DNA of 64,000 nucleotides from Gemmatimonadota bacterium (GTDB lineage Bacteria; Gemmatimonadota; Gemmatimonadetes; Palauibacterales; KS3-K002). The position numbers and the translations under genes were made by a program. Position 1 is the first letter of the stretch. Every line of letters begins with the position of its first letter. This document shows positions 15,661-63,336 of the stretch, piece by piece. The notes under the pieces were generated by a model that was not told the origin of the DNA, made no database searches, and was given only the letters and a program-made list of their open reading frames with translations. Location of the stretch: positions 1,014 through 65,013 of the forward strand of contig JBDHGH010000002.1 in assembly GCA_039589995.1 (NCBI GenBank). Reading direction: 5' to 3'.

Positions 15661-17247
15661 CTAGGAAGCCTCACCGCGGGGCTTGAGCAGGGCCACCGGC
15701 AGGATCATCTCGTCCGGGCTTATTCCACCGTGCAAGAAGCTGTCACGATACCGGGATTGGTACTCCCGCAACTTCGTGGGATACACGAAGAAGAAGTCCT
15801 CGCGGGCGACAAGGTAGTTGGTTTTCAGGCCGCCAGCGGGTAGTCGTATCGAGCCCCCGTCGGCGACCGAGAAGACGTTCGAGGGTGTCTCCGCTCGCAG
15901 GTCGTCTCCGTACTTGTAGCGCAGGCTTTGGGTCGCGTCTCGTTTCGCGAACACGGTCGTGGGTCGATGGCAGTGGACAGAGCCGTGGTCGGTGGTGAGC
16001 AGAACGCGTACGCCACGATCCCGCAGGATCTTCAGCGCCTTGCGCAGATCGGATCCTTCGTACCACGTGACGGTCAATCGACGCAGGGCTTCGGTATCGC
16101 GAGCCATATCGAACAGCAGTTGCGACTCACCACGTCCGTGGGTCAGGAGGTCCACAAAATTGAATACGATCCCGATGGCACGCCGCTCGTCCAACAGCGC
16201 AGGCAGTCGTCGGAGCATCGCGTCTCCATCGCTCGCCGTGTTCACCTTCTCGTAGTGCGACGGAACCGCACCATCGGTGAGGCGCCCAATCTGTTCGGCA
16301 AACAGTTCCCCCTCGAACGAGTTCAGGCCGGTCGTCTCGAAGGCCTCCGGCCACCCGGGCCGCGACCGGGCCAACTCGTCCGGAAAGACCCCACTGAATA
16401 TGGCGTTCCTCGAATACGGCGTCGCCGTCGGAAGGATCGAGATATAGAGATCCTCCTCCACTTCGAAGTCCTCGTCGATGATCGATTGAAGAGCTCGCCA
16501 CTGGTCCAATCGCAGGCAATCGATGACAATCAGAACCGAAGGCTCATCTCGGGCCAACAGCGGGAGAAAAAAGCTGGGGACGATGTCCACCGACAGCGAC
16601 GGACGCTCCGCCTGGCCCACCGCGACCCAACTGGCGTAGTTCTCTGCGACGAAATCGGAAAACTGCCGAAGCGCATCGCCCATCAGCGTGCGCAACGACT
16701 CCAGCAGTCCGACCTCGTCGGCTGCGCCGAGAGCCAGTTCCCAGTCTACGAGGTCGGAGTACACATCCGTCCAATCGCGCCACTCGCGAGCGTGATCGAT
16801 CCGCGACAACATATCGGTGTACGCTTGAACGAAGTCGCGAGCCATCTGTTCGTGGCGAAGACCCGGTCCTTCGAGAATGCGCGTCACCACCGAGGCCACT
16901 TGTCGAGGACTCGTCGGCTTGACGATGTAGTCGTCGACCCGCCGAGCGATCGCATCGGTGAGCGTCGTTTCCTCTTCGCTCTTCGTCACCATGACGACGG
17001 CGATCCGCGAATCGACACCCCGGATCTCCCTCAACATTTCGGTTCCGGTTCGGCCAGGCATTTCCTGGTCGAGAAGAACGAGGTCGTAGCTGCGGCGGCG
17101 AAGTTGGCTGAGCGCGTCGTCGCCGTTCGGTGTAGTATCGACTTCGTATCCGCGTTGTTGGAGAACGAGACGGTGCGGCAGGAGCAAGTCTACTTCGTCA
17201 TCGACCCAGAGTATCCGACCCTTCACCTGTCGCGTGACTGGCATCAC
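15661..17247 (-). CDS. PorX-like response regulator: REC domain fused to PglZ / alkaline-phosphatase-superfamily domain
   Basis: REC (ILWVDDEVDLL...DLVLLDQEMPGRTG...VVMVTKS...YIVKP), a helical linker, then a PglZ-like domain (VLIVIDCLRLDQW...PTATPYSRNAIFSG...LLTTDHGSV). The 528-aa length and architecture match T9SS PorX. Confidence 0.8.
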   Translation of the reverse strand: MMPVTRQVKGRILWVDDEVDLLLPHRLVLQQRGYEVDTTPNGDDALSQLRRRSYDLVLLDQEMPGRTGTEMLREIRGVDSRIAVVMVTKSEEETTLTDAIARRVDDYIVKPTSPRQVASVVTRILEGPGLRHEQMARDFVQAYTDMLSRIDHAREWRDWTDVYSDLVDWELALGAADEVGLLESLRTLMGDALRQFSDFVAENYASWVAVGQAERPSLSVDIVPSFFLPLLARDEPSVLIVIDCLRLDQWRALQSIIDEDFEVEEDLYISILPTATPYSRNAIFSGVFPDELARSRPGWPEAFETTGLNSFEGELFAEQIGRLTDGAVPSHYEKVNTASDGDAMLRRLPALLDERRAIGIVFNFVDLLTHGRGESQLLFDMARDTEALRRLTVTWYEGSDLRKALKILRDRGVRVLLTTDHGSVHCHRPTTVFAKRDATQSLRYKYGDDLRAETPSNVFSVADGGSIRLPAGGLKTNYLVAREDFFFVYPTKLREYQSRYRDSFLHGGISPDEMILPVALLKPRGEAS

Positions 17248-45651: not shown

Positions 45652-46803
45652 CTACGGCACCCTCAGGGTTCCCGAGGCCGGGGCGAGCGTTGAGGTGCCC
45701 CCAAGCGGATTCGACAGAATGATCGCTTCGGCGAGCAGAGTGTAGTCGGCCGGCGTCGCGGCCGCGCTCAGGGTGATCCAGAGTGTCAGAATCGCGCTCT
45801 TGCCGGGCACCAGAACGTCGCCGTTCGAATCGAAAAGAACGGCCCTGACTCGCCCTGGACTCGTCTGGTTGAAGTCGATTCCATCGAACGCAGACGCCCG
45901 ATCCCTGACGGTCACCGAGTCCACCGAGGAGATCGTCGCCGAAGCGAAAACAAAGTCGAACTGAACTCCGGCGACCGAGTCGCCGTTGGATAGCCCGATA
46001 ATCACCGGGACGCCGGTGGCGCCGGCGCCTCCCTCGGAATCGCCCACGATAAGTCGGTCCGGATCGGCGGTTACGTTGAATGCAACCACGCCCGGAGAGG
46101 ATTCGTTGCCCACGCGATCGCTGATACTCGCCAACATCTGGTTTGGGCCCGCAGTAAAAGCGGCGCTATCGGGCACGGTCCAGCTGCCGCCGCTTTCTGT
46201 CACAGCATCAAACAGCGGTGTGAGGTCCGAACCGGCGGGGTAGAGGGTCGATGTCGTACCATCCTGCAGGAGCACGCCGCCAACAGGCTGACTGTTTGTG
46301 ATCTCGAAAGTCTCGGAATCGACCCCGCTGAAATACTCGAGGCCTGTCGTCTCCTCGGAAAAACCCAACTCGATCGTGAATCCCGACTGCCCGAGTGTCG
46401 AGCTACCACCCGCCGGCGACACAAAACCGGCGGTCGGGGCCTCGCTGTCCTGTTCTATATCGAGGGTATCGGCAGCCTGATTTCCGGCCTGGTCAACAGC
46501 CAGAACGGAAAACTCACTGATCGCATTCGCCAGCAAAGAGACCGTAAACGAGAACGCGCCATCCGTATCGGCGTCTTGCGACAACGTGTCCTGTGGCCCT
46601 TCCAGAGAGACGGTCGCGCCCGGATCCGTCGTCCCCGTGATGAGCGATGTCAATTCGTTCGTCGGGCTGGCCACCGAATCCACCGCCAACTCGATCGTCG
46701 TATCGCTGGGACCCGAGGAATCGGAACAGCCGGCCAAGGCCACTACCCCCAGGATCACCAATGAAGATCTTCTCACCACGAGCATCTCGTATGGCCTTTC
46801 CAC
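45652..46803 (-). CDS. surface lipoprotein with Ig-like domains and a C-terminal cohesin-like domain
   Basis: Lipobox VVALAGCSD. An Ig-like segment (GTTDPGATVSLEG...DTDGAFSFTVSL...VLAVDQAGN). The C-terminus GVPVIIGLSNGDSVAGVQFDFVF...RVRAVLFDSNGDVLVPGKSAILTLWITL resembles cohesin modules. Confidence 0.7.
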   Translation of the reverse strand: MERPYEMLVVRRSSLVILGVVALAGCSDSSGPSDTTIELAVDSVASPTNELTSLITGTTDPGATVSLEGPQDTLSQDADTDGAFSFTVSLLANAISEFSVLAVDQAGNQAADTLDIEQDSEAPTAGFVSPAGGSSTLGQSGFTIELGFSEETTGLEYFSGVDSETFEITNSQPVGGVLLQDGTTSTLYPAGSDLTPLFDAVTESGGSWTVPDSAAFTAGPNQMLASISDRVGNESSPGVVAFNVTADPDRLIVGDSEGGAGATGVPVIIGLSNGDSVAGVQFDFVFASATISSVDSVTVRDRASAFDGIDFNQTSPGRVRAVLFDSNGDVLVPGKSAILTLWITLSAAATPADYTLLAEAIILSNPLGGTSTLAPASGTLRVP

Positions 46804-46881
46804 TTCAATCCCATCGTGCCCAGACGGTCCCGACGACGTCGACGTCGCGTCCGCGTCCTCGCCCGCGCCCCGCGCCCGCGA

Positions 46882-47865
46882 CTAGAACATCGCACTGAGC
46901 GAAAGATGCGTCTCGTCACCCAGCTGATTCACCCCCAACTCCCTCGCCAAATCAAACCGAAACGCCCCCAAACCAACCCCCAACCCCACCGTCGTTCCCG
47001 TATTTGTCTCTATCAACGTTTCCGCGATGAAACCGCCACGCAGAAACAGAATCTCCCGGACCCCCAACTCCACCCCGAAATACTGGCTCCCCGTCTCAAG
47101 ATTCCGGATTGCGTGCTCGAGATCCAACGCCAACAACAACTGGATTCCCTTACCCGGCAACAGATGACTCAGAGCGTCGTAGGCGACTCCGAATCGGGCG
47201 CGCGCGGGCAACGGCTGAGCCTCGGCACCCGGCCGGTCGTCGAAACGGAGATCGGGGCCCAAATTCAGAGCACTCACACCCAGCTGAAGCGGAACGTTCG
47301 CCAGTGGCAGCCAATGCAACCCGGCATCGAAGCCGAAGGTGCTCCCCTTCAGCTGGCCCACCAGCTCGCTGCGGATCAGCTTCGCCGCCACGCCGAAAGA
47401 GAGCCTTTGGACGAGTCGGCGGCCGAAACCGAGGCTGACAACCAGGTTGTTCGGCGAGAGCTGGCCAATCGGTGTGTCGGGTGAATCCAGACCTGTCAAC
47501 GGAATGTCGCCGAAGCTTTGAACCTCGGCCGAGAGCGCCAGCACACCGAAATCAGAAATAGGCACCGCGGCTGCAAACTCGGTGACCACGAAATCGAGCG
47601 GCCCGTCATAGCTCGACACTAGCGGGTTAACAGCGTCGAGCGCGCCCAGAGAGGCTGGGTTCCACCGAACGTTCTGCAAGTCGCCGGCGATCGCCGTCGC
47701 CGCGCGTCCCATCCCCACGGGTCGAGCACCCGTCGGAATCAACAGGAACGCCGATTCGCGGTCGAAATCCTGCGCTTCCGCAACGTTCGACCCCGACATG
47801 GCGAGAGCCGCCAACGCGAACAGAATCCGCGGCTCGAGAAACAACGGGCGCTGTCGCCGAGTCAC
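46882..47865 (-). CDS. PorV/PorQ-family outer-membrane beta-barrel (T9SS-associated)
   Basis: Signal peptide, then FLLIPTGARPVGMGRAATAIAGDLQNVRWNPASLGAL and a C-terminal ...LSLSAMF beta-barrel terminus, typical of PorV/LptO-like proteins. Confidence 0.75.
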   Translation of the reverse strand: MTRRQRPLFLEPRILFALAALAMSGSNVAEAQDFDRESAFLLIPTGARPVGMGRAATAIAGDLQNVRWNPASLGALDAVNPLVSSYDGPLDFVVTEFAAAVPISDFGVLALSAEVQSFGDIPLTGLDSPDTPIGQLSPNNLVVSLGFGRRLVQRLSFGVAAKLIRSELVGQLKGSTFGFDAGLHWLPLANVPLQLGVSALNLGPDLRFDDRPGAEAQPLPARARFGVAYDALSHLLPGKGIQLLLALDLEHAIRNLETGSQYFGVELGVREILFLRGGFIAETLIETNTGTTVGLGVGLGAFRFDLARELGVNQLGDETHLSLSAMF

Positions 47866-47874
47866 GTTAGGTAC

Positions 47875-49269
47875 CTACCTTCCGGGTACGATCAGCTTCC
47901 GCGTCGCGCCAAACGACCCCGCCTGCAAGCGGAGCACGTACAGTCCCGTTCCGACTGACTCGCCTCGATCGTTCCGTCCGTCCCATTCGAGAGTGTGACT
48001 TCCGGGCATGAGATAGATGTCCATCAGGCGCCGTATCCTCTGACCCCGGACGTTGTACACGTCCGCGACAACCCTCACAGCGCCGCTCGCCTGACGACTA
48101 CTCCCCCCAGACAGTTCGGGCCCGAGTGCCTCCGGTATCTCGAGATCCAACTTCGTTCCCCTGCCCGTGACCAGGGGGTTGGGGTACGCGTTGCTCAGCC
48201 GGAACTCCAGCGGAAGCGTGGTGAGGTTGCTGCGGACCAACTTGGCCGGCACAACCGCGCCGCCTTTGAACGCGAACAGCACCTCTCGAAGTTCTAGCCC
48301 GAGGTCCTCATCTTGACGAAACGAACCGACGAGACGAACCGGTAGCTTCACAATCGCTCCGTCGCCGCCAGCCAGCGCCTGACCCGAAGCATCGTAGACC
48401 AGCAGCACCAACTCGTCCCCATCGTCCCGGTAGACGAGGTTGAAGCCCGTTGCCCGCGGCCCCAGCTCGGGCGTCCCCAGGCGGACACGCCCCGGATCGT
48501 AGGCGAGCCGCGCCTGCACACCTGCGACTCCAGACCCGACTTCGGCCTCGAGGAGAACGGTGCGCTCTTCGGGAGCCGAGCCGGAGCTTTCGAGGCCCAA
48601 CCTGGCCGCGCCGACGCGTTGGCCTGCCGCCGGCGTCAGCGAAGCGACGAGCGTGGACGAGCTGCCACCGAGAATCACATCGACCTGGCAAACGACGTCT
48701 CCGATGTCCAGCGCGTTATCTCTGTTGCAGTCTGATATCGCGGCGGTCACAGGATCTGGAGTCACTCGCTCCAGGATGATGTCGACGAGCGCCACGACAT
48801 CACCCACGTTCACGTCTCCGTCGTCGTTCACATCACCTTGGTCCCGGGCGATTATCTCGCCGAACCATGTGCCCCAAGTATTCGCCGGGGACGATGCGTA
48901 CTCGGAGTACATCCACGTCCGGGTCGGGTTGGCAGGGTCGATGGCCACTCCGCTGTAGTCACCCCACCGGTTCCGGCCGCTGTCGAAGTCCTTCACGTAG
49001 TTGGCTTCGCCGGCCTTCAGTGTAGCGCTGGGACGCAGTTCGCTGTCGCTGGGTCTGCGACCCGTGTAGCGGATGTCTATGTAGGAGTCCAGGCAAGACT
49101 GGTTGTAGACCATCGACATGTTGCCGTTGGCGTCAGCGGTGATGGCCGGATAGTAAAGCCAGGTCGATTCGCACGTAGCGCGCCCTGGCGTACTGCCCGG
49201 TTGCGTCTGCGACGCTGTGCGCCGTCCACACTGAGCCGTTCCGGTACACCAGGTTTCTGACCCTCGCAC
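47875..49269 (-). CDS. C-terminal fragment of a frameshift-split secreted protein: dockerin-like repeats, cohesin-like domain, T9SS/FlgD-Ig-type C-terminal sorting domain
   Basis: DVNDDGDVNVGDVVALVDIIL and DCNRDNALDIGDVVCQVDVIL are dockerin-type Ca-loop pairs. VAGVQARLAYDPGRV...LVLLVYDASGQALAGGDGAIVKLPV is cohesin-like. The tail is SNAYPNPL...VADVYNVRGQRIRRL...GSHTLEWDGRNDRGESVGTGLYVLRL. The first ~35 codons of this ORF look non-coding. Confidence 0.7.
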   Translation of the reverse strand: MRGSETWCTGTAQCGRRTASQTQPGSTPGRATCESTWLYYPAITADANGNMSMVYNQSCLDSYIDIRYTGRRPSDSELRPSATLKAGEANYVKDFDSGRNRWGDYSGVAIDPANPTRTWMYSEYASSPANTWGTWFGEIIARDQGDVNDDGDVNVGDVVALVDIILERVTPDPVTAAISDCNRDNALDIGDVVCQVDVILGGSSSTLVASLTPAAGQRVGAARLGLESSGSAPEERTVLLEAEVGSGVAGVQARLAYDPGRVRLGTPELGPRATGFNLVYRDDGDELVLLVYDASGQALAGGDGAIVKLPVRLVGSFRQDEDLGLELREVLFAFKGGAVVPAKLVRSNLTTLPLEFRLSNAYPNPLVTGRGTKLDLEIPEALGPELSGGSSRQASGAVRVVADVYNVRGQRIRRLMDIYLMPGSHTLEWDGRNDRGESVGTGLYVLRLQAGSFGATRKLIVPGR

Positions 49270-50404
49270 CGCCGACCTCGATGAGGATCGACGATCCGCC
49301 CAGCTGGTTCGCGTTCGGTGGCGATAACCGCGTCGTGACCGGTACGTTGGCCGCTGTCAGCGTGGGAGTCGGGCTCAACGGATTCGTCAACGACCACAGC
49401 GTCATGGTCGTGCCAGTGGTGAAACGCGAGTCGTTGATCAGGTACTCGACGCCCGGCGTCCCGAACGTGACCGCGGGTCTGACTGTGAGAACCGGGACGC
49501 CCGGGTTGTCGGGGTCGCGCAGATCCCAGAAGTCGGTGTAAGTAACGGCAGGACACGTTTGATCGTACAGGTCCGCCTTCGGAAGTATGCGCACTTTGAC
49601 GTGGACGGATCCGCTTTGATACGGAAACTGGTTTGGCACGACGTAGACAGCGTCCTCATCGAACCCAAGCCCCTGATAGTCCGACCAGAACCCCGTCGGC
49701 GTGGATCCATTCAGGTCGCCGCGCGTGGCGAAATTGCACCACGTGCCATTCGGGTCGGAGTCGTCCGACACTGAGACCAGGATGTGAGACGTCGGGTTGA
49801 GCGTGTCTCGATCCACCGCCAGCCAGACCATCACCCAGCGGTCGTCGAAATGATCGTAAATCACTTTCGGATCGAAGGCGTTGTTGCCCGGCGCGACGTT
49901 GTTGAACCACATCGGACCGTTGATCTGCTGAAGGTTCGAACCGTCCTTGGTGAAGATGGCGAAGAAGCGATTCACCAACGCCATCAGGTGATTGGGACCC
50001 GCTGCCAAGATGGGGTCCGGCGGAATGTTGGTCGTCTGAAGGATCCCCTCGAAACTCCTCAGAAGGCCCGGAGGTGCTGCCACGCGGGCCGGCCCGAAGA
50101 ATCGGCTCGGATCATCCTGCTCGTTGGAACCCACCGGCGCCAGCGGCGGCCGCAGCCCAAACGGATCCGGCAGCAGAGAGACCGCATGCTCTGCCGGAAA
50201 CTCGAATCTGTCCAGTCCTGCCGGCGGGAAGGGCGGGAAAGCAGGCGTCGACACCGACTGGCCGGGCGCCGTTGTGCCCTGCGCCGGTCCCTGGTACAGC
50301 TGGGCGACCAGAGGCGACGTCAGCCCAAGGGTGAGCGCCGAGACGACGAGGCCCACGATCAGCACCTGCGCTCTCTTCCCCATCTGAATCTCCAGGAGTG
50401 TCAT
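49133..50404 (-). CDS. N-terminal fragment of the same frameshift-split secreted protein
   Basis: Signal peptide (MGKRAQVLIVGLVVSALTLGLTSPLVAQ), then a beta-rich domain of unknown family. Protein-like sequence switches frame near 49155..49170 into ORF 47875..49269. Confidence 0.7.
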   Translation of the reverse strand: MTLLEIQMGKRAQVLIVGLVVSALTLGLTSPLVAQLYQGPAQGTTAPGQSVSTPAFPPFPPAGLDRFEFPAEHAVSLLPDPFGLRPPLAPVGSNEQDDPSRFFGPARVAAPPGLLRSFEGILQTTNIPPDPILAAGPNHLMALVNRFFAIFTKDGSNLQQINGPMWFNNVAPGNNAFDPKVIYDHFDDRWVMVWLAVDRDTLNPTSHILVSVSDDSDPNGTWCNFATRGDLNGSTPTGFWSDYQGLGFDEDAVYVVPNQFPYQSGSVHVKVRILPKADLYDQTCPAVTYTDFWDLRDPDNPGVPVLTVRPAVTFGTPGVEYLINDSRFTTGTTMTLWSLTNPLSPTPTLTAANVPVTTRLSPPNANQLGGSSILIEVGGARVRNLVYRNGSVWTAHSVADATGQYARARYVRIDLALLSGHHR

Positions 50405-50407
50405 TTC

Positions 50408-50920
50408 TCAACGGATGCCTGAATCGAAACGCAGCGTCACCTCGGTGTATCGACCCGCCTCGACATCGATCGTCATCTTCTCGGCCCGCGGCTCGTCAAC
50501 CAGCAACGGCTCGCCAGGATCGAGGACATAGCGGCCCGGCGGAAGCTCCACGCGGAACCGGCCATCCACCGCACTGGTGAATGTTGCGACCACCCGACCC
50601 GAATTCTCATCCAGCACGGCTATCTCGGCCTGGTACGGGCGATCGGGACATGGCACGCCCTCTTCCAGCACCGGACATTGCGGCCCGATAGTGACCCGGC
50701 CCTCTAAGCCCGAACGCTCTGCCATGGAGGGTTCTCCGCTCTCCGATTCCACCATCTCGCGCGGCTCGCCGCCACCGACCGCCAGCGTGTCTTCGGAAAC
50801 CGATGCCGCCGGCTGTTGTTCTGTGGATGGTCGGCGGTTGCGCTCTCCGCTGTCGCCGCAGCCTCCAGCGAAGATCGAAAAAGCAGTCAGAAGAACGTAG
50901 CCGAGTCGAGGTTCGGGCAT
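50408..50920 (-). CDS. hypothetical lipoprotein with carboxypeptidase-regulatory-like beta-sandwich
   Basis: The ATG at 50920 gives MPEPRLGYVLLTAFSIFAGGCGD (lipobox). The C-terminus GRVVATFTSAVDGRFRVELPPGRYVL resembles CarboxypepD_reg-type domains. Confidence 0.55.
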   Translation of the reverse strand: MPEPRLGYVLLTAFSIFAGGCGDSGERNRRPSTEQQPAASVSEDTLAVGGGEPREMVESESGEPSMAERSGLEGRVTIGPQCPVLEEGVPCPDRPYQAEIAVLDENSGRVVATFTSAVDGRFRVELPPGRYVLDPGEPLLVDEPRAEKMTIDVEAGRYTEVTLRFDSGIR

Positions 50921-51237
50921 TCGAATCACGCTGGGTGGAGGGGCCAAGTGAATGCCGAAATATAGGGCGACGGCGAGCGGAACGGCCACCGGAGCCTATC
51001 AATCTGCAGCTAAAGAACTTGACTCCGGGCAACCGGGACTGTTTATTGATTTCGATGTTTCCCCGGTTTCCGCCGTATCATCAAGTAGAAACAGACTGAT
51101 CCGGCTCTCTTTCCCGTTACCAACGTCGAGCTGCTGTAGCGCGGCACCGGCTTCTATATAGCATCACGTCTGCTAACCGGCAGACTCTACGACTGACCGT
51201 CATGCTCCAACACAAACGCCGATTTGAGGAGGCGGTT

Positions 51238-53679
51238 ATGAGAGCGTTAGCCCCACTCACGTTGTTCGCAGGCTTGATCGTGGCCACGGCAGCACCTCCA
51301 GACCTTGTGGCACAAGACGTGGAGGAGCTTGGTCGCAAGCACGGGGTCAGACCACCGCCGGGCTATTACGAGGTCCTGGCTGCCGATCCCACGGCTTACC
51401 AGTTCAACGAAGTCTGGAGGGAGATCGCCCGCCAAGTGAGCGAGCAACGACGTGCTCTCGCCCGCGCGGGCGACTGGGCCGGGCTGAACGCGCACCTCGC
51501 TGACGGGCCGTCGAGGGCCGCGGCTACCGCGGCTGGAATCGCAGTTACTGGAACGTTCCGTTTCCCAGTGATCACCGGCATGTTCTCGGACAGCACGCAT
51601 GCCCTCCTTCCGGACACCGCCGGCTTGAATGCCAAACTCTTTACTACAGGAGCTGCACCGCCCTACTCGATCACGAAGTACTACGACGAGGTGTCCAACA
51701 CATTGCTGACCGTTACCGGTGACGTCGTCGGTTGGTTCACGGTGGACAGTGCCGCAGCGTGGTACGCGGGTACCAACAATGGGTTGAACCCCGGAACCGA
51801 CCGCCTCGGTGACTACATTCAAGAGCTGCTGAACCAAGCCGACCCGTTGATCGACTTCAGCCAATACGACAACGACAATAACGGCACCGTCGATCTGATC
51901 GCGATACTGCATCCTCTGGTGGGCGGAGAGTGCGGTACATCGAACATCTGGGCACACCGCTGGGTCTACAGGGTTTGGAAGGGTGCGCCTTACACAACCG
52001 CCGATGGCGTGACGGTGGACGACTATGTCGTCCAGGCGGCGGTCGGTGGCACCGGCGGGTGCACGGCCTCCGATACCATGGAAATCGGCACGATGACCCA
52101 CGAACTGGGTCACGGCATACTCAATATCCCCGACCTGTACGACACGGGCGGCAACTCGGAAGGCATCGGCGAATGGGGACTCATGGGCTCCGGGAATTGG
52201 AATGTCCAGAACAGTCCTGCCCATCTCGGGGCGTGGTCCAAGGATGAGGTTGGTTGGATCGCGATCGACACGGTAGACGCGTCACAGGGCACCGGCTCCC
52301 AGACGCTTAGCTCCGTCGTGCCGAATGACACCGCGATGAGGGTCGATATCAGCGGTACCAACGAGTACTTCCTTCTCGAGAACCGTCAGGGTAACGGCTC
52401 GGAAACGGGAAATCTGAACGGTCCGGGCCTGCTCATCTGGCACATCGACCCCGATCGGATCGCCGCGCGACGGAACGCGAACCAGGTGAACGCCATCGTA
52501 CCACACGGAGTCGACCTCGAGCAGGCCGATGGATCGGATCACCTCGGCAACAACGTCAATCGCGGTGATACGGGCGACCCCTGGCCAGGCTCAAGCAACA
52601 ATACAGTCTTCGGACCGTCGACGACGCCGAACTCCGAGCTGAACGACAACTCGAACTCGGCGCTTCGGGTCGACAGCATCACCCAGAACGGCGACGGTAG
52701 CGTCGGCTTCCGGGTGAACTTCAACGTCGTGAACGAGCGGGTCACCACCAGCATAGGTGTAGGGACCGAGGTGATCGTCGACGGGTCGAACGAAAACGCG
52801 CCCCACGACGTCGTCTGGGCGTTCCCGAGCAATCACAGCATCTCCGTCGATTCGATACAGGGCGACACGCTGATGCGCTACGTCTTTCAATCGTGGAGCG
52901 ACGGCGGTGCACGTTCGCACAACGTCGCAGCCGACGCCACGCCCGATACCTTCATCGCCAACCTGGATACCGAGCACCGGTTGAAGGCGACGACGGATAT
53001 TCAGGGCAACATCACTAGCTCGGAGACGCTCGACGCAAGCGGAGTCGCCTGGGTGGCGCCGACACAAAACGTCAGCCTGAAGGCGACACCTGCGACCTCG
53101 GGTTTCTTTTTCGTCGAGTGGACCGGCGACGTGTCCTCGACCAACGACTCCATCGAGGTGAACATGGCGCAGCCCCAGCAGGTGCACGCCGAGTTCGGCA
53201 CGGCCGTAGCCATCTCCACCACCGCACTGACCGCCGGCGTTATTGGCGCCGCTTACGTTGACACACTGATGGCGACGGGCGGCTCGGGCAACTTCACCTG
53301 GACTCAGGTGGGAGGCGACGCGCTGCCGGCCGGACTCAACATGAACGCCCAAGGTGTAATCACAGGCGCACCCGAGGAAGACGGCTCGTTCGCGATGGTC
53401 TTCCAAGCCGTATCGGGCGCGTTGTCCAGCACACAGGACACGGTGACGATGTCCGTGACCACGCCGACCCTGGCTCTGAGCAACGTGGTCAATCATCTGC
53501 TGGGCCCGATTCCAGTGCTGTCGGACGATGAAGAGAACTACCTCGACATCATCGGCAATAACAACGGACGCTTCGATGTCGGTGACTTCCGGGCCTACCT
53601 ACAGGATACCGGCGTCGTCACCGACGTTGTACCCGCGACGACGAAGGACCAGCCGGCGCATAAGGAGGAAGGACGATGA
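51238..53679 (+). CDS. M6-family (immune inhibitor A-like) zinc metalloprotease with Ig-like domains and a C-terminal dockerin-like loop
   Basis: The ATG at 51238 is preceded by GAGGAGG. Signal MRALAPLTLFAGLIVATAAPPDLVAQ. Zinc site MTHELGHGILNIPDLYD. A putative-Ig segment (TGGSGNFTWTQVGGDALPAGLNMNAQGVITGAP). Tail LDIIGNNNGRFDVGDFRAYL. Confidence 0.85.
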   Translation: MRALAPLTLFAGLIVATAAPPDLVAQDVEELGRKHGVRPPPGYYEVLAADPTAYQFNEVWREIARQVSEQRRALARAGDWAGLNAHLADGPSRAAATAAGIAVTGTFRFPVITGMFSDSTHALLPDTAGLNAKLFTTGAAPPYSITKYYDEVSNTLLTVTGDVVGWFTVDSAAAWYAGTNNGLNPGTDRLGDYIQELLNQADPLIDFSQYDNDNNGTVDLIAILHPLVGGECGTSNIWAHRWVYRVWKGAPYTTADGVTVDDYVVQAAVGGTGGCTASDTMEIGTMTHELGHGILNIPDLYDTGGNSEGIGEWGLMGSGNWNVQNSPAHLGAWSKDEVGWIAIDTVDASQGTGSQTLSSVVPNDTAMRVDISGTNEYFLLENRQGNGSETGNLNGPGLLIWHIDPDRIAARRNANQVNAIVPHGVDLEQADGSDHLGNNVNRGDTGDPWPGSSNNTVFGPSTTPNSELNDNSNSALRVDSITQNGDGSVGFRVNFNVVNERVTTSIGVGTEVIVDGSNENAPHDVVWAFPSNHSISVDSIQGDTLMRYVFQSWSDGGARSHNVAADATPDTFIANLDTEHRLKATTDIQGNITSSETLDASGVAWVAPTQNVSLKATPATSGFFFVEWTGDVSSTNDSIEVNMAQPQQVHAEFGTAVAISTTALTAGVIGAAYVDTLMATGGSGNFTWTQVGGDALPAGLNMNAQGVITGAPEEDGSFAMVFQAVSGALSSTQDTVTMSVTTPTLALSNVVNHLLGPIPVLSDDEENYLDIIGNNNGRFDVGDFRAYLQDTGVVTDVVPATTKDQPAHKEEGR

Positions 53680-54086
53680 ATAACAAGCGGAATTTCTTCG
53701 GATGGGCGCTTTCCATCGTCTGCGCCACTTTCCTGATCGGTTCCTGCGGCGGCGACGACAGCAGCGGGCCACCGCCACCCGAACCGGGTCAGTTGACCGT
53801 CAGCGTGTCGTCGAGCGCCACGGGTGCGGCCTTCAACCTGAGGATCACCGGCGAGGACATCGCCAACCCGGTGCAAGCGGTGGGAAGTCACGAGATCTAT
53901 ACCTTCGCCTCCGGTGACACGTTGAACACGGCGGTCATCGGCCAGGTTTCGTCCGGAGATTTGCTGAGGTTCAGCGTCCCCGATGTGAACCAGGCGGCAA
54001 GCTACCGGGTGACGTTGGTGGAAGTAGCGGGCACCGACAACGCCCTGCTTTCCAACAGCAGCTTCACCGTCAGCATAAGTCAGTAG
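53676..54086 (+). CDS. hypothetical lipoprotein
   Basis: MNNKRNFFGWALSIVCATFLIGSCGGDD (lipobox). Its start overlaps the protease stop (ATGA). Confidence 0.6.
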   Translation: MNNKRNFFGWALSIVCATFLIGSCGGDDSSGPPPPEPGQLTVSVSSSATGAAFNLRITGEDIANPVQAVGSHEIYTFASGDTLNTAVIGQVSSGDLLRFSVPDVNQAASYRVTLVEVAGTDNALLSNSSFTVSISQ

Positions 54087-54152: not shown

Positions 54153-54515
54153 CTAGCGCATCATGGCGTCGATTCTCGCCACGCGCGGATCGGTACCGAT
54201 AACCTCACCGCCTTCGGGAATCTCCAGCCAGCCCCGCAACGAGGTCTCGCCGAACACCGTGTCGACATGGAAGCCGTTTTCTTTCAGCCACTCGAGGTCC
54301 GTTTCTTGAATTGGCTCGACGAACTCGATGAGCATGAAGTTCTTCGGCTGTTCGGCCTCCGCTGTGCCGGCGTCACTCGAAGCGTCCCCGACGGTCTCGT
54401 TCATCGTGGCGTCCTCCGCATCTGCCGAGCTGTCGGCTTCTTCCCCTGGACGGCATGCCACGAGGCCCAGGACGACGACTACGATCGCGGCCTGCCATAG
54501 TTGTGTCGCTCTCAT
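54153..54515 (-). CDS. hypothetical lipoprotein
   Basis: MRATQLWQAAIVVVVLGLVACRPGEE, then an acidic linker and a small C-terminal domain. Confidence 0.55.
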   Translation of the reverse strand: MRATQLWQAAIVVVVLGLVACRPGEEADSSADAEDATMNETVGDASSDAGTAEAEQPKNFMLIEFVEPIQETDLEWLKENGFHVDTVFGETSLRGWLEIPEGGEVIGTDPRVARIDAMMR

Positions 54516-60477: not shown

Positions 60478-63336
60478 ATGCAGAAGCAACTGGGGCAGTC
60501 CCGGTCGGGGGTTAGAACCTCGAGCGCGGGATCCCCGATCGCGCACGCGTCTTTGGCGAGCGCGATCGCGGCAACGGTCCTAGCTCTCGCGGCTTCACTG
60601 GTACCTGCTACCGCCCGCGCCCAGGGGAACGACACGTGCCTGATGTGCCACGAGCAGGAAGCCCTGTTCTCCGGCCAACAGGATCCGTCGAGATACGTAG
60701 TCACGCGCCAGCAACACGACGCCTCGCTGCATGGCCGGGCCGGTGTCCTTTGCACCCAGTGCCACGCTGGGTTGTCTTTCCCACACGGTGACGTAAGACC
60801 GGCTGCGGACTGTACCGCGTGCCACGATGACCAGTCGATCCAGCACGCGGCTTCCCTCCATGGCCAGGCGGCGGCTAATAACGATCCACTCGCCCCCAGC
60901 TGTGCCACGTGCCATGGCATCCATGATATCAAAGCCCACACTGATCCGACATCGCCGACCTATGTCTTCAATATCCCGCTGCTCTGCGGTGAATGTCACC
61001 ACGAGGGGACGCCCGTCTCACGCACGCGCAACATTCCACAGGATCAAATACTAGAGAACTACTCGCTATCGATTCATGGGGCAGGATTGTTCGAGCAGGG
61101 CTTGGCGGTGACGGCGGTCTGCACGTCGTGCCACACCTCTCATTTCATCCTTCCGCACACCGACGAGCGCTCCAGTATCTACAAGGACAACGTCCCGGGT
61201 ACGTGCACCCAGTGCCACGCGTTGATCGAGGAAGTGCATCGACAGGTCATTGAGGGAAGGCTGTGGGAAGAAGAGCCGCACAAGATACCCGTGTGCGTGG
61301 ATTGCCATTCGCCGCACAAGATCCGTCGTGTTTTCTACGATGCGGGTGCGGCGAATGCGGACTGCATGCGCTGTCACTCGGATCCGACCCTGACGATGGA
61401 ACGAGACGGGGAATCGATCTCGCTGTACGTAGATGAAGGGGAGTACGCCACATCGATGCACGGCGGAACCGGATGTGCCCAGTGTCACACCGATGTCACT
61501 CCTTCGCTACTGGAACGACCCTGCGTGACCACCGTGGCCACAAACGTGGACTGCGCGATATGTCACCCCGTGCCGGTAGACGATTACACATCCGGCACGC
61601 ATGGCAGGCTTTCCGCCCAAGGCGTTGCAGACGCTCCTACGTGTAGAGACTGCCACGACTCCCACGCCACGCAAGGACGCCTTACGCCGACGTCCCCGAC
61701 CTTCGCGAGAAACGTCCCCGACCTCTGTTCCCGCTGCCACCGCGACGGTGAGGTGGCGGCGCAGCGGATTCACCACGAAGGCCCGGATATCGTCAACAGC
61801 TACGAGATGTCGATTCACGGCACGGGGCTCATCGAGAGCGGACTCGTAGTAACCGCGGTTTGCTCTAGTTGCCACACGCCCCACAAGGAGCTCCCGCCGG
61901 ACGATCCCGAGTCTTCGATCAACGCGGACAACATCGCCGATACTTGCGGTAGCTGTCACCACGGAATCCAAGTAGCCTACGCGGCCAGCGTGCACGGGCA
62001 GCGCCAGGACGAGGCTCCCGAGGGCAAGGAGTTCCCGACCTGCGAGGAGTGTCACACGTCGCATTCGATCAGTCGCGTCGACCAGGGCGACTTCCGGATG
62101 ACGATGATGAATCAGTGCGGACGTTGCCACGAAGAGGAGTCGGAGAGCTTCTTCGACACGTTCCACGGAAAGGTCTCGCGGCTGGGCGACGCGGGAACGG
62201 CCAAGTGCTACGACTGTCACGGAACGCACAACATCCAGCCGATCACCGACCCCGAGTCAACTCTGAGCCGCAGAAACATCGTCGAGACGTGCGCGCAGTG
62301 CCACCCCGGAGCCAACCGGAAGTTCACGGGCTACCTGACCCACGCTACGCACCACGACGCGGAAAGGTACCCCTGGCTGTTTTGGACTTTCTGGGGCATG
62401 ACAGCGCTGCTGGTAAGCGTGCTCAGCTTCGCCACGATCCACACCCTGGCATGGCTGTTCAGACTGTGGCGCTCGCCAGGTGAGTGGACGCGCCACAAGG
62501 AAGTCGAAGGCGAGGCGCTCTATCGGCGCTTCACGACGTTCGAGCGAACGCTGCACCTCGCGATGCTGATCAGCTTCTTCGTGCTGGCCATAACCGGCAT
62601 GATACTGAAGTTCTCGTACATGGGTTGGGCCCAAGTTGCAGCCAGCCTGGCGGGTGGCTTCGCAACCACCGGCGTGCTGCACAGGCTGGGCGCTGTTGCG
62701 CTCATCACGGTCTTCGCGATCCACCTGTTCGATGTATTTCAGCGCAAACAGATGTCGAAGAAGAGCTGGCGCGCGTTCATCTTCTCCGATAGCTCCTTGA
62801 TGTTCAACCTGACCGACCTGCGCGAGTTCGCCGGGTCGATCAAGTGGTTCATCGGGAGAGGGCCGCGGCCGAAGTACGGACGCTTTACCTACTGGGAGAA
62901 GTTCGACTACTTCGCGGTCTTCTGGGGAATGTTCATCATCGGCTCGACCGGGCTCTTGCTCTGGTTCCCCGAGTTCTTCACGAACCTTCTGCCGGGATGG
63001 ACCGTGAACGTGGCCACGATACTCCACAGCGACGAGGCGTTGCTCGCCGTGGCCTTCATCTTCACGATTCACTTCTTCAACACGCACTTCCGGCCAGACA
63101 AGTTCCCGATGGACCCGGTGATTTTCACCGGACGCGTGCCGCTTGAAGAGCTGAAGCAAGACAAGCCCCGGGAGTACCAGCAGATCGTCGACGGGGGCAA
63201 GCTCGACGAGTACCTGGTACACCCCTATCCGAAGAAGCTACAGAGGCTGTTCAGAGCGTTCGGGTTCGCAGCGTTATTCGTGGGACTGACGTTGATCTTC
63301 CTGATACTCTGGACAATGCTGACTTCGTACTTGTAG
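60478..63336 (+). CDS. multihaem c-type cytochrome (19 CXXCH) fused to a C-terminal multi-His polytopic membrane domain (cytochrome b-like)
   Basis: Signal peptide, then 19 CXXCH motifs counted in the supplied translation. From about nt 62365 there are 5-6 hydrophobic helices with conserved His (TIHTL, TLHLAM, LHRLG, AIHLF, ILHSDEA, TIHFFNTH). Confidence 0.9.
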   Translation: MQKQLGQSRSGVRTSSAGSPIAHASLASAIAATVLALAASLVPATARAQGNDTCLMCHEQEALFSGQQDPSRYVVTRQQHDASLHGRAGVLCTQCHAGLSFPHGDVRPAADCTACHDDQSIQHAASLHGQAAANNDPLAPSCATCHGIHDIKAHTDPTSPTYVFNIPLLCGECHHEGTPVSRTRNIPQDQILENYSLSIHGAGLFEQGLAVTAVCTSCHTSHFILPHTDERSSIYKDNVPGTCTQCHALIEEVHRQVIEGRLWEEEPHKIPVCVDCHSPHKIRRVFYDAGAANADCMRCHSDPTLTMERDGESISLYVDEGEYATSMHGGTGCAQCHTDVTPSLLERPCVTTVATNVDCAICHPVPVDDYTSGTHGRLSAQGVADAPTCRDCHDSHATQGRLTPTSPTFARNVPDLCSRCHRDGEVAAQRIHHEGPDIVNSYEMSIHGTGLIESGLVVTAVCSSCHTPHKELPPDDPESSINADNIADTCGSCHHGIQVAYAASVHGQRQDEAPEGKEFPTCEECHTSHSISRVDQGDFRMTMMNQCGRCHEEESESFFDTFHGKVSRLGDAGTAKCYDCHGTHNIQPITDPESTLSRRNIVETCAQCHPGANRKFTGYLTHATHHDAERYPWLFWTFWGMTALLVSVLSFATIHTLAWLFRLWRSPGEWTRHKEVEGEALYRRFTTFERTLHLAMLISFFVLAITGMILKFSYMGWAQVAASLAGGFATTGVLHRLGAVALITVFAIHLFDVFQRKQMSKKSWRAFIFSDSSLMFNLTDLREFAGSIKWFIGRGPRPKYGRFTYWEKFDYFAVFWGMFIIGSTGLLLWFPEFFTNLLPGWTVNVATILHSDEALLAVAFIFTIHFFNTHFRPDKFPMDPVIFTGRVPLEELKQDKPREYQQIVDGGKLDEYLVHPYPKKLQRLFRAFGFAALFVGLTLIFLILWTMLTSYL

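What the first reader, a model, noticed from the sequence alone, without database searches (positions are those of the whole stretch)
45652..54086. T9SS-linked surface-protein island carrying cohesin-like and dockerin-like modules
This 8.4-kb stretch holds six genes. (1) A lipoprotein with Ig-like domains and a cohesin-like C-terminal module. (2) A PorV/PorQ-like barrel. (3) A large secreted protein with two dockerin-type Ca-binding loops, its own cohesin-like module and a T9SS/FlgD-Ig-type C-terminal sorting domain. (4) A small lipoprotein. (5) An M6 metalloprotease whose tail carries one dockerin-like loop (LDIIGNNNGRFDVGDFRAYL, 53542..53601). (6) Another lipoprotein, overlapping the protease stop. 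Cohesin-dockerin pairing is best known from clostridial cellulosomes. Combined with T9SS export and a lipoprotein anchor, it suggests a modular protease-bearing complex tethered to the cell surface, in a lineage where none has been characterised to my knowledge.
Basis: partly seen in the sequence, partly recalled or inferred. Interest (0 to 1): 0.7.

Follow-up and report, generated by a model that had tools for sequence, protein, structure and literature searches.

The report
Two Gemmatimonadota surface-tethering gene modules
This stretch of a Gemmatimonadota genome holds a conserved operon with real cohesin and dockerin modules next to a PorV-like barrel, and a separate protease-plus-lipoprotein pair. 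The protease tail is probably not a true dockerin and seems to belong with its own small lipoprotein.

Summary
The six genes exist at the stated coordinates, but gene 3 is split by a 50-nt frameshifting deletion that intact 852-aa relatives lack. Cohesin is supported. An AF2 model of the gene-3 module matches solved cohesins (TM up to 0.73). The gene-1 C-terminus is homologous to that module (hhalign 92%), and 15 of 25 relatives hit Pfam Cohesin. Gene 3 has a canonical two-loop dockerin (family profile against solved dockerins, E=1e-7) and a FlgD-Ig/T9SS-type C-terminal domain. Gene 2 is a PorV/PorQ-family barrel. Gene 5 is an active-site-intact M6 protease.

The single protease-bearing complex is not supported. 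At the same chromosomal spot, relatives carry the four-gene operon alone, the protease pair alone, or both. The protease tail is a 57-aa three-helix module that is only weakly dockerin-like. It occurs in 858 protein clusters, and every named member I checked is from Gemmatimonadota. It sits on at least five cargo types, and a gene-6-type lipoprotein lay adjacent in 8 of 9 evaluable loci.

Best reading: two independent surface-tethering modules. The locus is a conserved syntenic region, not an acquired island. All binding steps are inferred.

The parts
45652..46803 (-). g1: outer-membrane lipoprotein. The likely start is M7 at 46785. Lipobox LAGC at 46726-46737. An Ig-like stalk (Big_6/Big_13, residues ~48-119) is followed by a C-terminal cohesin module at 45655-46065.
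   Evidence: Pfam Big_6 36 bits and Big_13 34 bits. The window protein itself has no Cohesin hit at E<=0.1, but 15 of 25 family members hit PF00963 (best 2.5e-7). In the family-profile search of solved structures, six of the seven hits (E 0.02-0.3) were cohesins; none is significant. hhalign to the g3 cohesin module gives 92% probability, E=7e-7.
46882..47865 (-). g2: PorV/PorQ-family outer-membrane beta-barrel with a signal peptide.
   Evidence: NF033709 PorV_fam 129 bits (cut-off 90). Pfam PorV 31.7 bits (cut-off 27). It falls below the equivalog cut-offs for PorV, PorQ and PorV2.
47875..50404 (-). g3: secreted cargo protein. It has a signal peptide, a ~500-aa uncharacterised N-domain, a dockerin, a cohesin and a C-terminal sorting domain. 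In this window a 50-nt deletion at ~49162 splits it into two frames (49133-50404 and 47875-49269).
   Evidence: Full-length ~852-aa homologues, and protein and DNA alignments showing a clean 50-nt gap. The N-domain has no Pfam, NCBIfam or PDB sequence match, yet more than 755 homologues exist.
48664..48837 (-). g3 dockerin: two 22-residue loop-helix repeats (GDVNDDGDVNVGDVVALVDIIL and SDCNRDNALDIGDVVCQVDVIL). The second repeat has two invariant cysteines.
   Evidence: Dockerin_1 scores 19.9-20.4 bits, below the gathering score of 22.9. 24 of 27 family members hit it (best 2.6e-7). The family profile against solved dockerins gives E=1e-7 (4fl4_A), with many others below 1e-3. The AF2 model shows three helices at pLDDT ~90.
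48217..48606 (-). g3 cohesin module (beta-sandwich).
   Evidence: AF2 model with mean pLDDT 81 and 87-95 across most of this module. Foldseek PDB hits are almost all cohesins: 2vn5_A TM 0.73, 5nrm_A 0.71, 1ohz_A 0.67, E 1e-6 to 4e-11. No Pfam Cohesin hit in any of 27 members.
47878..48216 (-). g3 C-terminal Ig-like sorting domain (FlgD_ig / T9SS type-A-like).
   Evidence: FlgD_ig 35-37 bits (cut-off 27). TIGR04183 20.3-21.9 bits (cut-off 23). 27 of 27 members hit FlgD_ig and 26 of 27 hit TIGR04183. It also matches the C-terminal domain of the PorU model NF033707.
50408..50989 (-). g4: small lipoprotein and first gene of the operon. The likely start is M24 at 50920. Lipobox AGGC. It carries a C-terminal transthyretin-like beta-sandwich.
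   Evidence: CarboxypepD_reg gives a weak hit (21 bits, below cut-off). The gene is conserved as the first gene of the operon in L001, L003, L005, L007 and L009.
51202..53679 (+). g5: secreted M6 metalloprotease. The likely start is M13 at 51238. Catalytic domain ~51649-52443, with HELGH at 52099-52113. This is followed by InlB-B-repeat and He_PIG Ig-like domains and a C-terminal tail.
   Evidence: TIGR03296 173 bits. Peptidase_M6 63.5 bits. Flg_new_2 24.4 bits. Homologues carry He_PIG.
53455..53628 (+). g5 tail: a 57-aa three-helix C-terminal module.
   Evidence: The motif is conserved in homologues. AF2 predicts three helices with core pLDDT 82-85. The profile finds 858 clusters at E<=1e-3. 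There is no Pfam or NCBIfam family. The link to dockerin is weak.
53676..54086 (+). g6: a 136-aa lipoprotein (lipobox IGSC) whose start overlaps the M6 stop by 4 nt. It is the proposed partner of the tail module.
   Evidence: Homologous 132-139-aa lipoproteins lie next to tail-bearing proteins of five architectures. There is no detectable homology to cohesin (hhalign <1%) and no PDB, Pfam or NCBIfam match.

Best explanation
The stretch holds two independent, divergently transcribed surface-tethering modules of a Gemmatimonadota chromosome.

Module A is the operon g4-g3-g2-g1.
- g3, when intact, is a Sec-exported cargo. Its C-terminal Ig-like domain is handled by a T9SS-type route.
- That domain is held by the dedicated PorV/PorQ-family barrel g2, in the way PorV holds PorU and PorQ holds PorZ in Porphyromonas gingivalis.
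- The lipoprotein g1 presents a cohesin on an Ig-like stalk. This cohesin captures the g3 dockerin.
- g3's own cohesin offers a further docking site, for example for the dockerin of a second g3.
- In this window a 50-nt deletion breaks g3, so module A is either inactive here or mis-assembled.

Module B is g5-g6.
- The secreted M6 metalloprotease carries a lineage-specific 57-aa three-helix tail.
- This tail is bound by the co-translated lipoprotein g6, tethering the protease to the membrane. The logic resembles dockerin-cohesin, but the partner is not a cohesin.

Shown: domain identities, folds, synteny, modularity and co-occurrence. Inferred: every binding step, surface localisation and use of a T9SS.
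For: Cohesin:
- Foldseek of the AF2 model of the g3 C-terminus returns solved cohesins (TM 0.55-0.73).
- The g1 C-terminus is homologous to that module.
- 15 of 25 g1 relatives hit Pfam Cohesin.

Dockerin:
- Two canonical loops are present.
- 24 of 27 g3 relatives hit Dockerin_1.
- The family profile hits solved dockerins at E=1e-7.

Barrel and C-terminal domain:
- NF033709 129 bits; FlgD_ig above cut-off; 26 of 27 relatives hit TIGR04183.

Operon conservation:
- g4-g3-g2-g1 is present in L001, L002, L003, L005, L007 and L009.

Independence of the two modules:
- L003 and L009 have the operon but no M6/g6.
- L012 (CP070722.1) has M6/g6 at the same spot between the HU and His_Phos_1 genes, with no operon there.

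Modularity of the tail:
- 858 clusters.
- All named members are Gemmatimonadota.
- It sits on M6, reprolysin-like, PPC+NHL-propeller, BACON and Sortilin/BNR proteins and on unknown N-domains.

g6 partnership:
- A g6-family lipoprotein was adjacent in 8 of 9 evaluable loci, with a 4-nt overlap in five of them.
Against: - No interaction was tested or modelled.
- The window's own g1 does not reach Pfam Cohesin. Its own g3 dockerin and TIGR04183 scores are just below the curated cut-offs.
- No T9SS core gene lies in the 64 kb. The literature treats a T9SS in Gemmatimonadota only as possible (PMC11285876).
- g3 is frameshifted here.
- One tail-bearing protein (L014, Sortilin/BNR type) has no g6 homologue beside it.
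- The g6 fold is unknown.
- g6 could instead be an inhibitor or chaperone.
- L012 might carry the operon elsewhere in its genome.
Confidence: 0.5

Rival explanations
1. There is one integrated, cellulosome-like, protease-bearing complex. The M6 protease docks through its dockerin-like tail onto the cohesin of g1 or g3. The assembly is tethered by the lipoprotein and the T9SS C-terminal domain.
For: - Two cohesins but only one canonical dockerin are encoded, which leaves one cohesin free.
- The tail is colinear with the g3 dockerin in hhalign (pairwise E=1.4e-3).
- Its only two near-matches in the PDB by fold are dockerins (4fl4_A and 4fl4_D, TM ~0.5).
- M6/g6 sits next to the operon in the window, L001, L002, L005 and L007.
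Against: - hhalign probability is only 17%. Foldseek E is 4.8. There is no Dockerin_1 hit. A profile search of solved-structure sequences finds no dockerin.
- Loop position 1 is hydrophobic, and the first repeat has no loop.
- Operon-only and M6-only loci both exist.
- The tail occurs in 858 clusters. The g1 family has about 26 clusters and was found in 6 species genomes.
- The tail travels with g6.
Confidence: 0.12
2. The cohesin-like and dockerin-like modules are structural or ligand-binding domains that do not pair with each other. g1 and g3 are then independent surface proteins, for example adhesins or glycan binders, that merely share an operon with a PorV-like barrel.
For: - Non-cellulosomal cohesin and dockerin modules of unknown partnership are widespread (Peer et al. 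2009, as cited in PMC8542988).
- Many g3-N-domain homologues carry only a cohesin or only a dockerin.
- No binding was tested.
Against: - g1 (cohesin) and g3 (dockerin) co-occur strictly in one operon in every locus with enough flank.
- Both Ca-loop repeats of the g3 dockerin are conserved across 27 homologues.
Confidence: 0.2
3. g6 is not an anchor. It is a dedicated inhibitor, chaperone or export escort for tail-bearing secreted proteins. The tail is then a sorting signal for an unknown lineage-specific export or attachment pathway.
For: - The tail is always near the C-terminus, like a sorting domain, and sits on many cargo types.
- The g6 start overlaps the stop of the cargo gene by 4 nt in the window, L012, L013, L015/L016 and L017.
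- No curated family covers either the tail or g6.
Against: - The tail has no hydrophobic helix and no known sorting motif.
- An inhibitor role fits poorly with the non-protease cargos, namely BACON and propeller proteins.
- Otherwise this reading cannot be told apart from the anchor model with present data.
Confidence: 0.2

Closest known systems
Clostridial cellulosome type I cohesin-dockerin pairs (for example 1OHZ, 2CCL, 2VN5)
   Same: - The g3 module has the cohesin beta-sandwich fold.
- The g3 dockerin has two Ca-loop/helix repeats that match solved dockerins.
   Different: - There is no multi-cohesin scaffoldin, no CAZymes and no S-layer-homology anchoring.
- The host is a diderm.
- Dockerin and cohesin lie in the same polypeptide, together with a T9SS-type C-terminal domain.
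- The second cohesin is on a lipoprotein.
- Binding is untested.
P. gingivalis attachment sub-complexes PorU:PorV and PorZ:PorQ (PMC5562754)
   Same: A PorV/PorQ-family barrel is encoded beside a protein with an Ig-like C-terminal domain. That domain also matches the PorU C-terminal-domain region of NF033707.
   Different: - g2 fails the PorV, PorQ and PorV2 equivalog cut-offs.
- g3 is unrelated to PorU and PorZ outside the C-terminal domain.
- The phylum is Gemmatimonadota, where a working T9SS has not been shown.
Predicted cohesin/dockerin plus T9SS-CTD complex of Ca. Stygibacter (Cloacimonadota) (PMC8542988)
   Same: This is an FCB-group lineage. Cohesin and dockerin modules are combined with a C-terminal sorting domain and peptidases, and the complex is proposed from MAGs only.
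   Different: That system has a 3,755-aa multi-cohesin scaffoldin and several dockerin-bearing enzymes. Here there are single cohesins, one dockerin protein, a dedicated PorV-like barrel and a lipoprotein cohesin.
Immune inhibitor A (InhA) / M6 peptidases
   Same: The catalytic domain passes TIGR03296 and Peptidase_M6, and HExxH is intact.
   Different: The C-terminal cassette of He_PIG plus a 57-aa tail, and the coupled lipoprotein gene, are specific to Gemmatimonadota.

Membership tests
Cohesin (PF00963) | Match to the family HMM | tested here: inconclusive
   g1 of the window: no hit at E<=0.1. 15 of 25 g1 relatives hit at E<=0.01, best 2.5e-7. g3 family: 0 of 27 hit.
Cohesin (PF00963) | Nine-stranded jelly-roll beta-sandwich fold | tested here: met
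   The AF2 model of the g3 module matches about 40 solved cohesins, TM 0.55-0.73. g1 was not modelled; it is linked to the g3 module by hhalign at 92%.
Cohesin (PF00963) | Binds a dockerin | not testable with these tools
   No multimer modelling or binding assay was available.
Dockerin type I (PF00404): g3 | Two tandem ~22-residue repeats, each an EF-hand-like Ca loop (D-x-N-x-D-G...D) followed by a helix | tested here: met
   DVNDDGDVNVGD and DCNRDNALDIGD, each followed by a helix. The repeats are conserved in 27 homologues.
Dockerin type I (PF00404): g3 | Match to the family HMM above the gathering score | tested here: inconclusive
   Window copy: 19.9-20.4 bits against 22.9. 24 of 27 relatives hit at E<=0.01. 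The family profile against solved dockerins gives E=1e-7.
Dockerin type I (PF00404): M6 tail | Two Ca-loop repeats and an HMM match | tested here: not met
   There is only one loop, with I/L at loop position 1, and the first repeat has no loop. There is no Dockerin_1 hit, and a profile search of solved-structure sequences finds no dockerin. hhalign gives 17%. Foldseek gives E=4.8.
T9SS type A cargo (TIGR04183 / FlgD_ig CTD) | C-terminal Ig-like sorting domain | tested here: met
   FlgD_ig 35-37 bits (cut-off 27). TIGR04183 20.3-21.9 bits, just below 23. 26 of 27 relatives hit TIGR04183.
T9SS type A cargo (TIGR04183 / FlgD_ig CTD) | The genome encodes the T9SS core (Sov/SprA, PorK-N, PorU) | not tested
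   None is present in the 64-kb window. The whole genome was not available. The literature says only that a T9SS 'may be present' in Gemmatimonadetes (PMC11285876).
PorV/PorQ family (NF033709) | HMM score above the curated cut-off | tested here: met
   129 bits against 90. It is not an equivalog of PorV (60 against 250), PorQ (58 against 220) or PorV2 (39 against 325).
Peptidase M6 | Catalytic-domain HMM match and an HExxH zinc site | tested here: met
   TIGR03296 173 bits against 110.8. HELGH at residues 300-304.
Cellulosome | A scaffoldin with several cohesins and several dockerin-bearing glycoside hydrolases | tested here: not met
   There are single cohesins only. The only canonical dockerin in the 64 kb is on g3. 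No CAZyme domain was found.

The most novel reading that the evidence does not exclude
The 57-aa tail plus the g6-type lipoprotein is an undescribed, Gemmatimonadota-wide two-gene cassette for tethering or sorting secreted proteins. A modular C-terminal three-helix domain, possibly a remote one-loop dockerin derivative, would be recognised by a cognate ~135-aa lipoprotein encoded immediately beside each cargo. The cassette is reused on proteases, propellers and BACON proteins. It would work like cohesin-dockerin, but with a partner that is not a cohesin.
Probability: 0.35. Interest if true: 0.7.

Novelty: new variant of a known kind. Interest (0 to 1): 0.5.

Why it matters
Gemmatimonadota are abundant in soils and sediments, but almost nothing is known about how they display proteins on their surface.

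A conserved operon that joins a lipoprotein cohesin, a dedicated PorV-like barrel and a dockerin/cohesin/CTD cargo would be a compact, testable case of cohesin-dockerin assembly on a diderm outer membrane, outside cellulose degradation.

The tail-lipoprotein cassette, if real, would be a new modular anchoring pair. It would be useful for annotating hundreds of unexplained C-termini, and possibly for surface display.

This is not a new principle. Non-cellulosomal cohesin/dockerin modules and T9SS-linked versions have already been predicted elsewhere.

Tried and rejected
- Exact look-ups of the window's PorV-like protein and of the truncated g3 product found nothing on record.
- Two metagenome scans for sequence beside the deletion junction found nothing. 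Whether the 50-nt deletion is real or an assembly error therefore stays open.
- Rfam found no RNA family in the window.
- The promoter and terminator scan gave chance-level counts.
- The first M6 homologue search timed out and was redone with the C-terminal 259 aa.
- g6 as a hidden cohesin is rejected: hhalign <1% against both cohesin alignments, with no PDB, Pfam or NCBIfam match.
- Tail profile against solved-structure sequences: no dockerin. The best hit, which is not significant, is the LRR C-terminal cap of TLR8.
- The g3 N-domain has no Pfam, NCBIfam or PDB sequence match.
- Acquired island is rejected: composition is flat and the flanks are syntenic.
- Peer et al. 2009 (PMC3035643) is not held. 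It is cited only through PMC8542988.
- No paper links Gemmatimonadota with dockerin.

Full report
**Observation**

The window has 62% G+C with no compositional break at the locus.

- g1, 45652-46803(-): a lipoprotein (LAGC) with Big_6 and Big_13 domains.
- g2, 46882-47865(-): passes the PorV/PorQ family model NF033709 (129 bits, cut-off 90). It does not pass the PorV, PorQ or PorV2 equivalog models.
- g4, 50408-50989(-) and g6, 53676-54086(+): small lipoproteins.
- g5, 51202-53679(+): passes the M6 domain model (173 bits) and keeps HELGH.

The quoted peptide lies exactly at 53542-53601. g6 overlaps the M6 stop codon by 4 nt.

One correction is needed. Gene 3 is not a single frame here. It is split into 49133-50404(-) and 47875-49269(-). 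Homologues are single proteins of about 852 aa; the closest is P0027 at 87% identity. Protein and DNA alignments show that the window lacks exactly 50 nt, or 17 codons, between RID and WLYY at about 49162. I found no second assembly of this organism. A real pseudogene and an assembly error therefore remain equally open.

**Cohesin and dockerin**

- I modelled the last 330 residues of g3 with 26 homologues (mean pLDDT 81). The model has three helices, then a beta-sandwich, then a second Ig-like domain.
- Foldseek against the PDB returns solved cohesins almost exclusively. Examples are 2vn5_A (TM 0.73), 5nrm_A (0.71), 1ohz_A (0.67) and the archaeal non-cellulosomal cohesin 2xdh (0.66).
- The C-terminal 140 residues of g1 are homologous to this module (hhalign 92%, E=7e-7).
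- 15 of 25 g1 relatives hit Pfam Cohesin, although the window copy does not. In a g1 family-profile search of solved structures, six of the seven hits were cohesins, all weak.
- The g3 dockerin has two canonical loop-helix repeats.
- The window copy scores just below the Pfam gathering score. However, 24 of 27 relatives hit Dockerin_1, and the family profile hits solved dockerins at E=1e-7.
- The C-terminal domain passes FlgD_ig. It is just under the TIGR04183 cut-off, and 26 of 27 relatives hit that model.

The cohesin, dockerin and sorting-domain assignments for g1 and g3 therefore hold.

**Context**

Named homologues are all Gemmatimonadota. A scan of one genome per species found the g1 family in only six Gemmatimonadota MAGs, plus one distant Hydrogenedentota locus.

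The order g4-g3-g2-g1 is conserved in every related locus with enough flank: L001, L002, L003, L005, L007 and L009. The same housekeeping neighbours appear in each case. On one side are HU, a DEAD/DbpA helicase, an SDR, an M24 peptidase and an amidohydrolase. On the other are His_Phos_1, SSF and a P-type ATPase. This is a conserved chromosomal locus, not an acquired island.

No T9SS core gene lies in the window. The literature says only that a T9SS may exist in Gemmatimonadetes (PMC11285876).

**The protease is a separate module**

Three arrangements occur at the same chromosomal spot:
- operon plus M6/g6: the window, L001, L002, L007, and L005 (partial);
- operon only: L003 and L009;
- M6/g6 only: L012, the 4.09-Mb record CP070722.1.

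The M6 tail is conserved in homologues as LDxxGNxNGxFDvGDFxAy, preceded by two helices. AF2 predicts three helices with core pLDDT 82-85.

Its relation to dockerins is weak:
- hhalign against the g3 dockerin is colinear, but at 17% probability.
- The only near-matches by fold are two dockerin chains, at E=4.8.
- No Dockerin, Pfam or NCBIfam model matches.
- A profile search of solved-structure sequences finds no dockerin.
- Loop position 1 is hydrophobic, and the first repeat has no loop.

A tail profile searched against 1.84 billion representative proteins finds 858 clusters, 208 of them at E<=1e-10. The match is always near the C-terminus. All ten proteins I looked up that carry a source name are from Gemmatimonadota.

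The tail sits on several cargo types, usually after a He_PIG domain:
- M6 proteases
- a reprolysin-like protein
- PPC+NHL propellers
- a BACON protein
- a Sortilin/BNR protein
- proteins with unknown N-domains

**The g6 partnership**

I looked at the gene next to tail-bearing proteins of different architecture. A homologue of g6 is immediately adjacent in each of the following. These are 132-139-aa lipoproteins, 30-50% identical, with pairwise E from 1e-11 to 1e-46 in a small database, or 95 bits to a family HMM.

- M6: the window, L001/L007 and L012
- PPC-propeller: L013 and L015/L016
- BACON: L017
- reprolysin-like: L018 (upstream)
- unknown N-domain plus Flg_new_2: L019

The g6 start overlaps the cargo stop by 4 nt in the window, L012, L013, L015/L016 and L017. 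The exception is L014, where an unrelated IPT-like ORF lies beside the Sortilin/BNR protein. L020 is cut after a lipoprotein signal peptide.

g6 shows no homology to cohesin and matches no curated family or solved structure.

**Mechanism proposed**

Module A:
- g3 is exported and held at the outer membrane through its C-terminal domain by the dedicated barrel g2. [quoted passage not shown]
- The g1 cohesin, carried on an Ig-like stalk, captures the g3 dockerin.
- The g3 cohesin is free for a second dockerin.
- The roughly 500-aa N-domain of g3 is the unknown effector. It has more than 755 homologues, often fused to T9SS C-terminal domains, cohesins or dockerins in other FCB-group phyla.

Module B:
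- The M6 protease is tethered or escorted by its cognate lipoprotein g6 through the tail.

All interactions are inferences from domain identity, operon structure and co-occurrence.

**Comparison and novelty**

Non-cellulosomal cohesins and dockerins are known (Peer et al. 2009, as cited in PMC8542988). A cohesin/dockerin/CTD complex with peptidases has been predicted for Cloacimonadota. No paper links Gemmatimonadota with dockerins.

The operon is a new variant of a known kind. The tail-g6 cassette is the most novel element, but it rests on nine loci and no structural or binding evidence.

**Verdict**

The modules are real, but the protease-bearing complex is not supported, and gene 3 is broken in this copy. 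Interest is moderate.

Noticed in passing
window 54153-54515 (-); L001 2119-2544; L012 12892-13368: A small lipoprotein (120-158 aa) has a conserved ~60-aa C-terminal domain (NFMLIEF...RGWLE...DPRVARI). It always sits just beyond g6 on the opposite strand in the three loci compared. It has no Pfam hit. From memory the pattern resembles a protease propeptide/inhibitor (I9-like) fold; this was not tested.
   Followed up: partly
L002 2986-5449: The M6 homologue in this MAG is also split into two frames (residues 9-187 and 188-824 in separate HSPs; the called gene is only 596 aa). This shows that frameshifts in these MAG assemblies are not rare.
   Followed up: no
window 48694-48732 (-) and alignment A2: The second dockerin repeat of the g3 family has two invariant cysteines (DCN...GDVVC). 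They may form a disulfide clamping the Ca loop to its helix, which is unusual for dockerins.
   Followed up: no
L011 2868-10321 (Hydrogenedentota MAG): The distant g1-like cohesin locus holds two cohesin-like cores. Nearby is a gene with six tandem 'DxNGNGVIDCxD' EF-hand/dockerin-like loops separated by proline-rich linkers.
   Followed up: no
window 49133-50404 (-) and homologues P0053-P0146: The ~500-aa N-domain of g3 has no Pfam, NCBIfam or PDB sequence match. It nevertheless has more than 755 homologues in Calditrichota, Bacteroidota and other lineages, fused to PKD, CarboxypepD_reg, cohesin, dockerin and T9SS C-terminal domains. This is a large uncharacterised secreted-domain family.
   Followed up: partly
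window 60478-63336 (+); L012 19178-21790: A 952-aa multihaem cytochrome c (Cytochrome_C7, Paired_CXXCH, c3) appears to be fused to a cytochrome b561-like membrane domain. It is syntenic in the related genome.
   Followed up: no
window 15661-17247 (-): A response-regulator receiver domain is fused to a PglZ domain (528 aa), next to an ABC exporter.
   Followed up: no
window 53542-53601 (+): The best match of the tail profile among solved-structure sequences, though not significant, is the LRR C-terminal cap of TLR8 ([21 protein letters not shown]). The motif resemblance is curious and probably due to chance.
   Followed up: no
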